Below, piece by piece: positions 12,606 through 14,544 of a DNA stretch of 33,633 nucleotides (the stretch's first letter is position 1; every line of letters starts with the position of its first letter). The DNA is from a virus (taxonomy: Duplodnaviria > Heunggongvirae > Uroviricota > Caudoviricetes). The notes under the pieces were generated by a model. That model had not been told where the DNA came from and ran no database searches. It was given only the letters and a program-made list of their open reading frames with translations. The position numbers and the translations under genes were made by a program. The DNA is taken from IMG/VR virus record IMGVR_UViG_2529292906_000021; one strand, 5' to 3'.

Positions 12606-12681
12606 TAGCATCTATCTGGTTGACAAAGTCTATGTTAAATGGAAATATGGTTGACACCAAAACAACAAGGATATTACGGTC

Positions 12682-13296
12682 ATGCAGAATTTATCTCAAC
12701 AGTTGTTAGAAGCATATGACAAGGAGTGCCGCAAAGAGCTTTCGATCGCGTTAGCACAGGCTTATCTTCATTCGCATATGAAGGCAAAAGAGTTTGGTTC
12801 TTTTTGGGCTCAAGCACAGTCATATTTGCGCTGGTTTTATGCCGATGCATTGCTTGAGAATGCGGCTAAGCGTGTGGGGCTGGATTTTGAAGTCGGTAGC
12901 AATGCTGCTAAAAATTGTAAACACATTGCGATTCACTCGAACAACTGGAAAATGACGGCACATCATTTATCGGGTAATGCGCCACTTCCTAAGCAGGCAT
13001 TGTATAGAGCTGTTTACGCTAATCAAAATTATGAATTGAATTTTGGGGATGAAAATGCCGACTCCCTGGATGGGAGAGCGTCTGGTGGACATGTTTATAT
13101 GTTACATGATGGCAGTAATCAGCACTTGTCCAAACTGAATTTAACTGTTCCTTCTTCGGATAATTACGGGATTCTTTATACTGAGTCTTTACCAATTATG
13201 ACGATGGTAGAAGTTGAAGCAGAAAATGTGGATTCTGAGATTGAAGATAAAATCAAGATTCTTACCGAGCAAATAATTAAATCACAGCAATCATGA
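12682..13296 (+). CDS. Hypothetical protein (gene 1 of a two-gene operon)
   Basis: 204-aa ORF; AAGGA RBS upstream; stop overlaps the next start (ATGA); two TTGACA hexamers lie upstream (12619-12655); no domain recognised. Confidence 0.6.
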   Translation: MQNLSQQLLEAYDKECRKELSIALAQAYLHSHMKAKEFGSFWAQAQSYLRWFYADALLENAAKRVGLDFEVGSNAAKNCKHIAIHSNNWKMTAHHLSGNAPLPKQALYRAVYANQNYELNFGDENADSLDGRASGGHVYMLHDGSNQHLSKLNLTVPSSDNYGILYTESLPIMTMVEVEAENVDSEIEDKIKILTEQIIKSQQS

Positions 13297-14438
13297 GCAT
13301 GAATATCGCACAAACACCATTTACTGATAAATCGTTTAATCCTCGTCGCCTTGAGGAGGCAAGAGAGGCAAAAGGGTTGACGATGGCTGAACTTGCCAGA
13401 GTGCTCAATATTTCAAGACAAGCTATTTCGTCATTTGAGAAGGGGTTGAAGTCTCCCTCTGCTGATACACTTTCTGCAATAGCCAAGGTGTTAGGATTTC
13501 CAGAACGATTTTTCTTAGCCTCCAGTGCTTCTCCATCTCTGGAGGGGGCGATTCATTTTAGAAGTCGTTCAACTGCGACCAAAAAGGCTCGAGTTACAGG
13601 GAAAACACGTGGGCGTTGGGCGGCATTAATATTGGATGAATGTCTAAAATATGCTCAATTACCAGATGTGGTTCTGCCTGAATTCGATATTATTGATTTT
13701 GAGGTTCTGTCTCTATCTGATATTGAGGATATGTCCACCCAATTAAGGCGTTTTTGGGGGTTAGGTGATGGTCCAATACTCAATTTAACTAGACTTGTTG
13801 AAAATAAAGGAATCGTGGTTTCTCATTTACCTTCTGGTGAGAAAGTTGATGCCTTTTCGTTCTGGCATAATGGGCGGCCTTTAATTATGTTAGATAGCTC
13901 GAAGACGGCTGTTCGCATGCGATTTAGTCTTGCTCATGAACTTGGCCATTTAATTATGCATAGGGCAGTGGAGGATGACTACCTGAATGATAAAGAATTA
14001 TTCGACCTAGTGGAGTTGCAGGCCGATTATTTTGCCTCCAGCTTTTTAATGCCAGCCACGACTTTCGGGCGTGAATTTTATAGTCCAAATTTATCAGCGT
14101 TAGAACGATTAAAACTACGTTGGATTACATCTATCGGTAGTATTGCCATGAGGAGTCATAGCCTTAAGTTAATTAGCGATAATCAGAAAAGCTATATATT
14201 TAAGCAATTAGCGCCATTCCATCGTAGGGAGCCGTTAGATGATGCAATCCCAAAAGAAGAGCCTGAGTTACTTAATAAGTTACTTTTACTTCTTGATAAG
14301 CATTCAATCATAAAGGTAACTGAGTTAACTGATATCTTTGCTCTTCCTTTAAATGAGTTATCTGCAATTACACGATTTAAAGAATCAGATATGATTCATT
14401 CTGACAATGTTATTTCATTTACCATAAAACAAAAATAA
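13293..14438 (+). CDS. HTH-XRE / ImmA-IrrE (COG2856, M78-type) metallopeptidase fusion protein
   Basis: 381 aa; N-terminal HTH (…LTMAELARVLNISRQAISSFEKGLKSPSADTLSAIAKVLG…); central HExxH zinc-peptidase motif (…FSLAHELGHLIMH…) with downstream acidic residues; about 120-aa extra C-terminal region; followed by a strong terminator. Confidence 0.75.
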   Translation: MSMNIAQTPFTDKSFNPRRLEEAREAKGLTMAELARVLNISRQAISSFEKGLKSPSADTLSAIAKVLGFPERFFLASSASPSLEGAIHFRSRSTATKKARVTGKTRGRWAALILDECLKYAQLPDVVLPEFDIIDFEVLSLSDIEDMSTQLRRFWGLGDGPILNLTRLVENKGIVVSHLPSGEKVDAFSFWHNGRPLIMLDSSKTAVRMRFSLAHELGHLIMHRAVEDDYLNDKELFDLVELQADYFASSFLMPATTFGREFYSPNLSALERLKLRWITSIGSIAMRSHSLKLISDNQKSYIFKQLAPFHRREPLDDAIPKEEPELLNKLLLLLDKHSIIKVTELTDIFALPLNELSAITRFKESDMIHSDNVISFTIKQK

Positions 14439-14449
14439 TTCTCATTCAT

Positions 14450-14470
14450 ACCCGCCTCGGCGGGTTTTTG
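14450..14470 (+). terminator. Rho-independent terminator closing the accessory island
   Basis: CCCGC-CTCG-GCGGG hairpin followed by TTTTTGTTTT. Confidence 0.6.
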
Positions 14471-14544
14471 TTTTACGTATTCTGGTTTACAATCCACAGG
14501 CCAGCCTGAACAACTGGCACCTGCTGCGCCAGCAGAGACAACCG

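What the first reader, a model, noticed from the sequence alone, without database searches (positions are those of the whole stretch)
12619..14472. Two-gene operon: unknown 204-aa protein coupled to an HTH-XRE/ImmA-IrrE metallopeptidase fusion, at the position where Qin carries relBE
Genes 12682-13296 and 13293-14438 overlap by ATGA and are bracketed by an upstream promoter-like region (two TTGACA hexamers) and a strong downstream terminator, forming a discrete cassette. The second protein fuses an XRE-type HTH to a COG2856/M78 zinc peptidase (HELGH present) plus an extra C-terminal region. Such HTH-peptidase proteins are known signal-responsive regulators or antitoxin-like partners in defence islands (established knowledge of the COG2856 family). 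The first protein has no recognisable domain and would be the candidate effector. From memory, in the Qin prophage the hok-proximal site holds the relBE toxin-antitoxin pair, so this looks like a module swap at a TA/defence hotspot.
Basis: partly seen in the sequence, partly recalled or inferred. Interest (0 to 1): 0.8.

Follow-up and report, generated by a model that had tools for sequence, protein, structure and literature searches.

The report
RosmerTA toxin–antitoxin cassette in a prophage
This two-gene cassette is a member of RosmerTA, an already named toxin–antitoxin and anti-phage defence family, carried as a self-contained accessory module by a lambda-like E. coli prophage; it is real and well formed, but it is a known kind of system.

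Summary
The sequence features are real: two ORFs (12682-13296, 204 aa; 13293-14438, 381 aa) overlapping by ATGA, two TTGACA boxes upstream, a strong terminator downstream, and an XRE-HTH + M78 peptidase (HELGH). The cassette is not novel. PADLOC models identify ORF2 as RmrA (E 5.5e-102, full length) and ORF1 as RmrT (E 7.5e-10). All 65 members of ORF1's family hit the same RmrT model (best 1.8e-53). This is RosmerTA (Millman 2022). The pair is co-conserved in every informative lineage examined. It moves as a unit of promoter/operator boxes, two genes and terminator between different prophage slots and chromosomal islands. The identical copy in LF82 prophage Tritos is transcribed in lysogens. 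The relBE placement is wrong: relBE lies upstream of hokD, whereas this cassette lies downstream of hokD and replaces rem. The toxin subfamily is uncharacterised. A confident AlphaFold model resembles the restriction-endonuclease fold but lacks the canonical catalytic triad. Toxicity, ClpXP dependence and phage defence are inferred from related Rosmer systems, not shown for this pair.

The parts
12585..12603 (+). hokD terminator hairpin (ACCCGC-TTCG-GCGGGT + TTT). It is the left boundary of the cassette and the left copy of a ~20-nt hairpin repeat.
   Evidence: Sequence. Homology to Qin ends at 12603. Qin reads AACCCGCTTCGGCGGGTTTTTGTTTT, while the window copy has a truncated T-run followed by CCTAGC.
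12614..12656 (+). Two-box promoter/operator element: AT(C/A)TGGTTGACA twice, 31 bp apart. Box 1 contains a consensus -35 (TTGACA, 12620-12625) with a weak -10 candidate AAATAT at 12643-12648. Box 2 (12649-12656) would lie at about +1. Inferred to be the RmrA HTH operator overlapping the promoter.
   Evidence: The boxes are invariant in window, L003, L004, L005 and L014 and L016. L006 keeps the same 31-bp two-repeat layout with a different sequence. The LF82 copy is transcribed in lysogens (PMC9928086).
12667..12671 (+). Shine-Dalgarno-like AAGGA, 10 nt upstream of the rmrT ATG.
   Evidence: Sequence.
12682..13296 (+). rmrT: 204-aa toxin candidate of an uncharacterised RmrT subfamily. Predicted restriction-endonuclease-like fold without the canonical D...(D/E)xK. 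Conserved residues are Y28, N74, N78, H81, T92, R109, N116, H142, E181, plus an N-x-x-[DS]-L-F motif (aa 116-121) before an acidic loop.
13293..14438 (+). rmrA: 381-aa antitoxin. XRE HTH (aa 20-73; nt 13350-13511). Linker with invariant F89-R90 (nt 13557-13562). M78/ImmA-IrrE Zn-peptidase (aa 170-287; nt 13800-14153) with H215-E-L-G-H219 (nt 13935-13949) and third ligand E241 (nt 14013-14015). RmrA-specific C-terminal domain (aa 288-381).
   Evidence: Pfam. PADLOC RmrA E 5.5e-102 covering 7-381/383. 31% identity over full length to the validated E. coli OLC-716 RmrA. NCBIfam spr1629 repressor/antitoxin E 4.8e-55. Invariant residues. CapP and ImmR similarity.
14450..14474 (+). Intrinsic terminator of the cassette (ACCCGC-CTCG-GCGGGT + TTTTGTTTT). 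It is the right copy of the hairpin repeat and carries the Qin-type hokD terminator tail.
   Evidence: A hairpin plus T-run follows the cassette stop codon in three of the four aligned loci (window, L003, L005); L014 is less clear. Homology to Qin resumes at 14528.

Best explanation
The cassette is a RosmerTA-family toxin-antitoxin module carried as a moron (an autonomously expressed accessory unit) by a Qin/lambda-like E. coli prophage. rmrT encodes a soluble 204-aa toxin. rmrA, translationally coupled by ATGA, encodes an antitoxin that fuses an XRE HTH, an active-looking M78 zinc peptidase and a family-specific C-terminal domain. The operon has its own promoter, overlapped by two GGTTGACA boxes that most likely serve as the operator for RmrA autorepression, and its own terminator. 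It is therefore expressed in the lysogen independently of the phage lytic programme. In the resting cell RmrA keeps RmrT harmless, probably with help from host ClpXP as in related Rosmer systems. Perturbation by an infecting phage, or loss of RmrA or ClpXP, frees the toxin. The toxin then arrests or kills the cell, protecting the lysogen population by abortive infection. Its most likely target class is DNA or the replication machinery. Shown here: gene structure, family membership of both proteins, strict co-conservation, mobility of the whole unit, and conservation of the cis-elements. Shown in the literature for the identical LF82 copy: transcription in lysogens. Inferred from relatives: toxicity, neutralisation, ClpXP dependence, phage defence, and the toxin's target.
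Confidence: 0.8

Rival explanations
1. It is a genuine RosmerTA-type toxin-antitoxin pair, but its biological role is not phage defence. It would instead act as an addiction/stabilisation module for the prophage, or as a stress-signalling device, as proposed for pneumococcal RipAB, which triggers competence.
For: RipAB is a Rosmer-family pair with a physiological signalling role and no reported defence phenotype (PMC12795458). Vmi480/470 was characterised only as a TA pair on a genomic island. The cassette sits next to hokD, a classical post-segregational killer. No defence data exist for this subfamily.
Against: Two tested Rosmer systems protect against phages. Relatives of this cassette lie in recognised immunity contexts: the cI-N slot of a Yersinia prophage (L003), and next to AAA_15/21, BrnT and TIR genes (L009, L012). 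An integrated prophage needs no plasmid-type stabilisation.
Confidence: 0.12
2. ORF2 is an ImmR/ImmA- or CapH/CapP-like regulatory switch of the prophage itself: a damage-activated protease that inactivates a repressor domain. ORF1 would be an ordinary phage function under its control, not a toxin.
For: ORF2 shares sequence similarity with CapP (7t5t) and the ImmR HTH (7t8i) and with PADLOC capP/capH models. Homologues in Clostridioides phages are annotated 'cI-like repressor'.
Against: The prophage already has its own cI/cro-type immunity region at about 6.0-6.8 kb. The cassette is bracketed by its own promoter and terminator. It occurs at several non-equivalent prophage positions and in non-prophage islands, always with the same small partner gene. 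HTH and protease are fused rather than separate. ORF1 relatives are all classified as RmrT.
Confidence: 0.04
3. ORF1 is an active restriction-type nuclease, and ORF2 acts mainly as its transcriptional controller (C-protein-like). The system would then work like a solitary, methylase-less restriction or nuclease defence rather than a TA pair.
Against: The D...(D/E)xK catalytic residues are not conserved in the family. The fold scores are weak. The invariant zinc-peptidase site in ORF2 has no role in a C-protein model. In related systems the antitoxin works in trans on the protein, and ClpX is needed.
Confidence: 0.03

Closest known systems
RosmerTA (RmrT/RmrA), Millman et al. 2022; verified system from E. 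coli OLC-716
   Same: Two co-oriented genes with the toxin first. The antitoxin is an XRE HTH + M78 Zn-peptidase + C-terminal domain of about 370-380 aa. RmrA is 31% identical over its full length. Both genes hit PADLOC Rosmer models. Carried by mobile elements.
   Different: The toxin is unrelated in sequence to the OLC-716 RmrT. It belongs to another RmrT subfamily (PDLC03933) with no member known to me to have been tested.
RipA/RipB (Spr1630/Spr1629) of Streptococcus pneumoniae (PMC12795458)
   Same: A Rosmer-family pair. The RipB-type antitoxin model (NF052239) matches ORF2 at E 4.8e-55 over nearly its full length. The antitoxin is essential because of the toxin. ClpX-dependent restraint of the toxin is a plausible model for this cassette.
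   Different: ORF2 scores well below the equivalog cut-off (187 vs 335 bits). ORF1 could not be compared with RipA. DnaN targeting is only hinted at here by a [DS]LF motif. The host and context differ (chromosomal in a Gram-positive, versus a prophage moron).
Vmi480/Vmi470 of Vibrio mimicus MGIVmi1 (PMC4671572) and the E. coli E101 prophage pair that makes clpP essential (10.1101/2020.05.25.114553)
   Same: A toxin of about 200 aa encoded first, followed by an HTH + Zn-peptidase antitoxin of about 360-380 aa. Carried on mobile elements. The toxin is lethal in E. coli. The E101 pair is prophage-borne.
   Different: The accessions differ from those at this locus (WP_001180546.1 / WP_000062344.1 in LF82).
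ImmR/ImmA (ICEBs1), IrrE/DdrO, CapH/CapP
   Same: An M78/COG2856 zinc protease working with an XRE HTH repressor. ORF2 has sequence similarity to CapP and ImmR.
   Different: In those systems the repressor and protease are separate proteins that control expression of other genes. Here they are fused in one polypeptide and paired with a toxin.
PD-(D/E)xK restriction-endonuclease-like fold (NaeI, SwaI, Hjc, RecU, Cas4)
   Different: There is no sequence similarity. The catalytic D...(D/E)xK is replaced by N78/H81...T92-x-H94. Scores are below the level of a secure fold assignment.

Membership tests
RosmerTA | Antitoxin RmrA: a single protein with an N-terminal XRE HTH fused to an M78/ImmA-IrrE zinc peptidase with an intact HExxH | tested here: met
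   Pfam HTH_3 (aa 20-73) and Peptidase_M78 (aa 170-287). H215, E216, H219 and E241 are invariant across partners and the validated RmrA.
RosmerTA | Full-length similarity of the antitoxin to RmrA profiles and to a verified RmrA | tested here: met
   PADLOC PDLC03947 E 5.5e-102 covering 7-381 of 383, with 14 RmrA models hit. 31% identity, E 4e-41, to OLC-716 RmrA.
RosmerTA | An adjacent, co-oriented small gene that matches an RmrT toxin profile | tested here: met
   ORF1 hits RmrT PDLC03933 at E 7.5e-10 (modest). All 65 members of its family hit the same model, best 1.8e-53. ATGA overlap with rmrA.
RosmerTA | The toxin and antitoxin genes are co-conserved as a pair across genomes | tested here: met
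   Every informative locus examined, with toxin identity from 20% to 73%, has the HTH+M78 gene immediately downstream. One contig was cut.
RosmerTA | RmrT is toxic and RmrA neutralises it | not testable with these tools
   Only shown for relatives: delta-rmrA not transformable, Vmi480/470, RipAB, rmrA essential by Tn-seq.
RosmerTA | Protection against phage infection | not testable with these tools
   Shown for the OLC-716 and phage Kita systems only. No data for this subfamily.
Classical type II TA | Autoregulation by antitoxin binding to an operator in its own promoter | tested here: inconclusive
   Two conserved GGTTGACA boxes 31 bp apart overlap the -35 and the predicted +1. The layout is kept in diverged cassettes. 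Binding was not tested.
ImmR/ImmA or CapH/CapP regulatory pair | Separate repressor and protease genes that control expression of a downstream cargo (an element's transfer genes, or CBASS) | tested here: not met
   HTH and protease are fused in one ORF. The only co-conserved partner is the small upstream toxin gene. No CBASS or ICE genes are nearby.
PD-(D/E)xK nuclease superfamily (for RmrT) | Restriction-endonuclease-like alpha-beta-beta-beta-alpha-beta core | tested here: inconclusive
PD-(D/E)xK nuclease superfamily (for RmrT) | Conserved catalytic D...(D/E)xK metal-binding motif | tested here: not met
   No conserved acidic or lysine residues at the beta2/beta3 positions. The conserved residues are N74, N78, H81, T92 and H94.
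Occupant of the Qin relBE site | Lies at the position that relBE holds in Qin (immediately upstream of hokD) | tested here: not met
   Qin order is relB-relE-hokD-rem-ydfU. The cassette lies downstream of hokD and replaces rem.

The most novel reading that the evidence does not exclude
The RmrT subfamily encoded here could be a degenerate restriction-endonuclease-fold protein that has lost metal-dependent catalysis. It might poison replication by docking onto the beta sliding clamp through its family-wide N-x-x-[D/S]-L-F motif (QISLF or QLNMF in some members), which precedes a flexible acidic loop. It would be held in check because RmrA and ClpXP proteolyse it. That would make clamp targeting a recurrent strategy of otherwise unrelated Rosmer toxins, with RipA as the precedent, and would define a 'protease-plus-unfoldase' mode of toxin neutralisation.
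Probability: 0.12. Interest if true: 0.55.

Novelty: already known. Interest (0 to 1): 0.22.

Why it matters
It matters mainly as correct annotation. RefSeq labels the two genes 'hypothetical protein' and 'helix-turn-helix domain-containing protein', and the LF82 prophage paper lists them as morons of unknown role. In fact they form a RosmerTA module present in about 0.8% of complete E. coli genomes, including AIEC LF82 and APEC strains. This predicts that rmrA, and possibly clpX/clpP, are conditionally essential in those strains, and that the prophage may protect its host from other phages. That is relevant to phage-therapy host range and to interpreting CRISPRi and Tn-seq screens. The toxin subfamily's mechanism is still open. 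The cassette also illustrates how a promoter-genes-terminator unit moves between moron slots.

Tried and rejected
- **Single-sequence AlphaFold of ORF1** gave pLDDT 36 and was discarded. The 65-sequence alignment was needed.
- **The word-indexed homologue search** found only relatives at 64% identity or more. Repeating it with the family profile added nothing useful.
- **Two scans of species-representative genomes** with family alignments found no relatives. The taxonomic spread of the subfamily therefore rests on metagenome and assembly contigs.
- **The afdb50 fold library** was not available.
- **Pfam, NCBIfam and PDB-sequence profile searches** with all 65 family members gave no consistent hit.
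- **Linking the locus to experimentally tested pairs by accession.** The E. coli variants I could retrieve (L014, L016) carry accessions different from the E101 pair. Cluster names did not reveal Vibrio members. Millman's supplementary tables, truncated in storage, do not list LF82. The Piotrowski 2009 paper is not held. Identity with Vmi480, the E101 toxin or RipA therefore remains untested.
- **An N-terminal QLLxAF/Y clamp-binding-like motif** was rejected as a family feature, because it is conserved only in the Enterobacterales-proximal subclade.
- **A membrane-toxin mechanism like phage Kita RmrT** was set aside: the model is a compact alpha/beta domain with no predicted membrane segment.
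- **The 'defence hotspot' label** for the hokD-ydfU slot was rejected after sampling.
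Full report
**Observation.** The window has two + strand ORFs, 12682-13296 (204 aa) and 13293-14438 (381 aa), whose stop and start overlap in ATGA. Upstream there are two TTGACA hexamers (12620-12625 and 12651-12656). They are embedded in a 12-nt direct repeat AT(C/A)TGGTTGACA with 31-bp spacing. 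Downstream there is a GC-rich hairpin plus T-run at 14450-14474. ORF2 carries Pfam HTH_3 (aa 20-73) and Peptidase_M78 (aa 170-287) with HELGH at 215-219, plus about 95 further C-terminal residues. ORF1 has no Pfam or NCBIfam match. The simple sigma-70 scan does not report a full promoter at the TTGACA boxes, because the best -10 (AAATAT, 12643-12648) is weak.

**Identity.** PADLOC-DB models classify ORF2 as RmrA (14 RmrA models hit; best E 5.5e-102, covering 7-381 of 383 positions) and ORF1 as RmrT (best E 7.5e-10). RmrT/RmrA is the RosmerTA system of Millman et al. [quoted passage not shown] In that study delta-rmrA could not be transformed (10.1101/2022.05.11.491447). ORF2 is 31% identical over its full length (E 4e-41) to the RmrA of the experimentally verified E. 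coli OLC-716 system, whose sequence I took from their Table S2. ORF1 shows no similarity to that system's RmrT. This fits the literature: the ImmA-type antitoxin is a hub paired with many unrelated toxins (PMC10440598). NCBIfam adds a below-cutoff match of ORF2 to the 'spr1629 family repressor/antitoxin' (E 4.8e-55).

**Is ORF1 really an RmrT?** An exhaustive profile search of 1.84 billion cluster representatives found a small family: 78 hits at E <= 1e-3, mostly 200-220 aa. I aligned 65 full-length members (A2), and every one matches PADLOC RmrT model PDLC03933 (best 1.8e-53). ORF1 is therefore a diverged member of an RmrT subfamily that is already catalogued. PHROGs also has a family for it, of unknown function.

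**Co-conservation.**
- Homologues of ORF1 at 73% (L005), 65% (L003/L004, Yersinia), 55% (L014), 44% (L016), 37% (L006), 24% (L007/L008), 23% (L009/L010) and 20% (L012/L013) identity all have an HTH_3 + Peptidase_M78 gene immediately downstream, usually overlapping. It is about 374-407 aa; the L014 gene is annotated shorter (see 'Side observations').
- One further contig was cut too short to tell.
- The toxin diverges faster than the antitoxin: 55% and 44% against 67% and 60% in the two other E. coli alleles.
- In the RmrA partners and the validated RmrA, H215, E216, H219 and the third zinc ligand E241 are invariant. So is an F89-R90 pair in the linker after the HTH. The peptidase is thus likely to be catalytically active.

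**The cassette is a mobile unit.** The two GGTTGACA boxes, with the same 31-bp spacing, are invariant upstream of the toxin gene in the window, L003, L004, L005, L014 and L016, although the flanks are unrelated. L006, a more distant relative, keeps two 24-nt repeats at the same 31-bp spacing but with a different sequence. That is what one expects of an operator co-evolving with its HTH. A hairpin plus T-run follows the stop codon in three of the four aligned cassettes (window, L003, L005); L014 is less clear.

The unit sits at different places:
- between hokD and ydfU (window, LF82);
- between cI and N in a Yersinia prophage, lambda's rexAB position by my knowledge of lambda (L003);
- in the nin region before rusA/Q (L005);
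- after Q, a methyltransferase and three tRNAs, the position used by stx in Stx phages by my knowledge (L014);
- in a tRNA-Gly island (L016);
- in chromosomal islands next to AAA_15/AAA_21, BrnT or TIR-domain genes (L009, L012).

**Occurrence and expression.** The exact cassette (>= 99% identity) is in 41 of 5,426 complete E. coli genomes, and four more carry diverged versions. It is also in phage Tritos, the LF82 prophage (TRITO_40/41). For LF82, published RNA-seq lists the two genes among the Tritos 'morons': LF82_281 (hypothetical) at 30x and LF82_280 (ImmA/IrrE) at 14x above prophage background in lysogens (PMC9928086, Table 1). The operon is therefore transcribed in lysogeny, as a defence or TA moron should be. 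Those authors did not recognise it as a TA or defence pair.

**Position.** The relBE statement is wrong. Qin runs relB-relE-hokD-rem-ydfU-ydfT. In the window hokD (12360-12515) precedes the cassette. Homology to Qin ends at 12603, inside the hokD terminator, and resumes at 14528, upstream of the 92-aa ORF and ydfU. Qin has about 430 bp containing rem in between. The cassette thus replaces rem.

The hokD terminator hairpin is present twice. The left copy (12585-12603) has a truncated T-run. The right copy (14450-14474) carries the full Qin-type tail TTTTTGTTTT. This suggests that exchange occurred through the hairpin sequence, which is an inference.

Sampling other prophages shows that the slot downstream of hokD is empty (L017, L021), or holds rem (L020, L022, Qin) or an 86-aa ORF (L018/L019). 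The slot upstream of hokD is the variable one. It holds relBE (Qin), an FRG-domain protein (LF82), DUF4209, an AIPR/Abi-like protein, the Paa adhesin, or, in this window, three unknown genes.

**Toxin structure.**
- Single-sequence folding failed (pLDDT 36).
- With the 65-sequence alignment the model is confident (pLDDT 87, pTM 0.81). It has a long N-terminal helical hairpin (4-64), three strands (68-95), a helix (107-119), a low-confidence acidic loop (122-135), three more strands (136-169) and a C-terminal helix (185-203).
- Foldseek against the PDB and BFVD finds nothing significant (best E about 0.1 and 0.01), though its weak hits are again enriched for the same fold (McrC, Hjc, R2 endonuclease, CinB, RecE, UL24).
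- The family has no conserved D...(D/E)xK. Its conserved polar residues are Y28, N74, N78, H81, T92, (H94), R/K104, R109, N116, H142 and E181.

I therefore describe the toxin as having a probable nuclease-like fold with a non-canonical or lost active site. I do not file it as a PD-(D/E)xK nuclease.

**Mechanism by analogy.** Four independent studies tie Rosmer-type toxins to ClpX(P).
- spr1630 makes clpX essential in pneumococcus (cited in PMC12795458).
- A prophage TA pair makes clpP essential in E. coli E101, and a T46S toxin mutation suppresses this (10.1101/2020.05.25.114553).
- In Pectobacteriaceae, rmrA is essential and clpX is essential only in RosmerTA-positive strains (10.64898/2025.12.09.693261).
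- Maziero et al. 2025 show that RipB neutralises RipA in trans, that this needs ClpX, that RipB overexpression bypasses ClpX, and that RipA acts on the DnaN clamp (PMC12795458).

The likeliest working model for this cassette is therefore as follows. RmrA represses its own operon through the two boxes. Together with ClpXP, it keeps RmrT inactive or degraded. Phage infection, or loss of RmrA or ClpXP, releases the toxin. All of these steps are inferred for this locus.

One sequence hint is worth recording. The family-wide motif N116-x-x-[D/S]-L-F121 precedes the flexible acidic loop, and it reads QISLF or QLNMF in some members. This resembles the beta-clamp-binding consensus QL[SD]LF, which I recall from memory. 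L119 and F121 may simply be core residues, and I could not inspect the model coordinates.

**Rivals.**
- A TA pair with a non-defence role (addiction or signalling, like RipAB) cannot be excluded and is the main alternative.
- An ImmR/ImmA-like prophage switch is unlikely. The prophage has its own immunity region, the HTH and protease are fused, and the pair is autonomous and also found outside prophages.
- A restriction-like nuclease with a C-protein-like controller is unlikely, given the missing catalytic motif and the invariant peptidase site.

**Verdict.** The TA/defence interpretation is essentially right, and the positional claim is wrong. The system is a member of an already named and catalogued family (RosmerTA). 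What remains unknown is the biochemical activity of this RmrT subfamily, and whether this particular cassette defends against phages.

**Side observations.**
- The three-gene minus-strand cluster at 9863-12019 is an independent, widespread cargo of unknown function in the variable slot upstream of hokD.
- RefSeq truncates the start of the L014 RmrA. The true start overlaps the toxin stop (TAATG) and restores the full HTH.

Noticed in passing
window 9863-12019 (- strand): A three-gene putative operon (about 363, 142 and 213 aa; overlapping stops and starts) with no Pfam, NCBIfam or PADLOC match. Each gene belongs to a PHROG of unknown function (phrog_12777, 11490, 9664). It fills the variable slot between the replication module and hokD. 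Other prophages carry relBE, an FRG-domain protein, DUF4209, an AIPR/Abi-like protein or Paa in that slot. The trio is widespread (indexed in 4,660 blocks of the collection) and occurs without RmrTA, so it is an independent cargo and a candidate unknown defence or accessory system.
   Followed up: partly
window 12585-12603 and 14450-14474: Near-identical terminator hairpins (ACCCGC-N4-GCGGGT) bracket the cassette. The left copy has lost most of its T-run. The right copy carries the exact T-tail of the Qin hokD terminator. This suggests the cassette was exchanged or inserted by recombination through the hairpin sequence.
   Followed up: partly
window 14545-14823 (+): A 92-aa ORF (phrog_1212, unknown function) immediately precedes the DUF968/ydfU-like gene (14825-15880). 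It is annotated as a hypothetical protein at the same position in LF82, Tritos and every sampled prophage. It is unannotated in K-12 Qin, although the DNA is homologous.
   Followed up: no
L014 6536-6626 (E. coli 2013C-3181, NZ_CP027312.1): RefSeq annotates the RmrA homologue (WP_231216515.1) with a late start that removes the first part of the HTH. The reading frame extends upstream to an ATG overlapping the toxin stop codon (TAATG), giving a full-length RmrA like the others.
   Followed up: yes
L003 6001-7757; L014 5931-7687; L016 3361-5111: Diverged alleles of the same cassette sit in other classic moron or island sites: between cI and N in a Yersinia prophage, after Q/methyltransferase/tRNAs in an E. 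coli prophage, and in a tRNA-Gly island next to a 315-aa unknown gene and an integrase fragment.
   Followed up: partly
L009 6114-8488 and L012 6509-7327: Distant RmrTA relatives lie beside an AAA_15/AAA_21 ATPase plus a 285-aa gene and a BrnT toxin (L009), and beside a CAP12-PCTIR TIR-domain gene (L012). These are defence-island-like neighbourhoods.
   Followed up: no
window 13027-13047 (RmrT aa 116-122) and alignment A2: A family-wide N-x-x-[D/S]-L-F motif sits at the end of helix 107-119, before a variable acidic loop. It reads QISLF or QLNMF in some members and resembles a beta-clamp-binding pentapeptide. This is notable because the pneumococcal Rosmer toxin RipA targets DnaN.
   Followed up: partly
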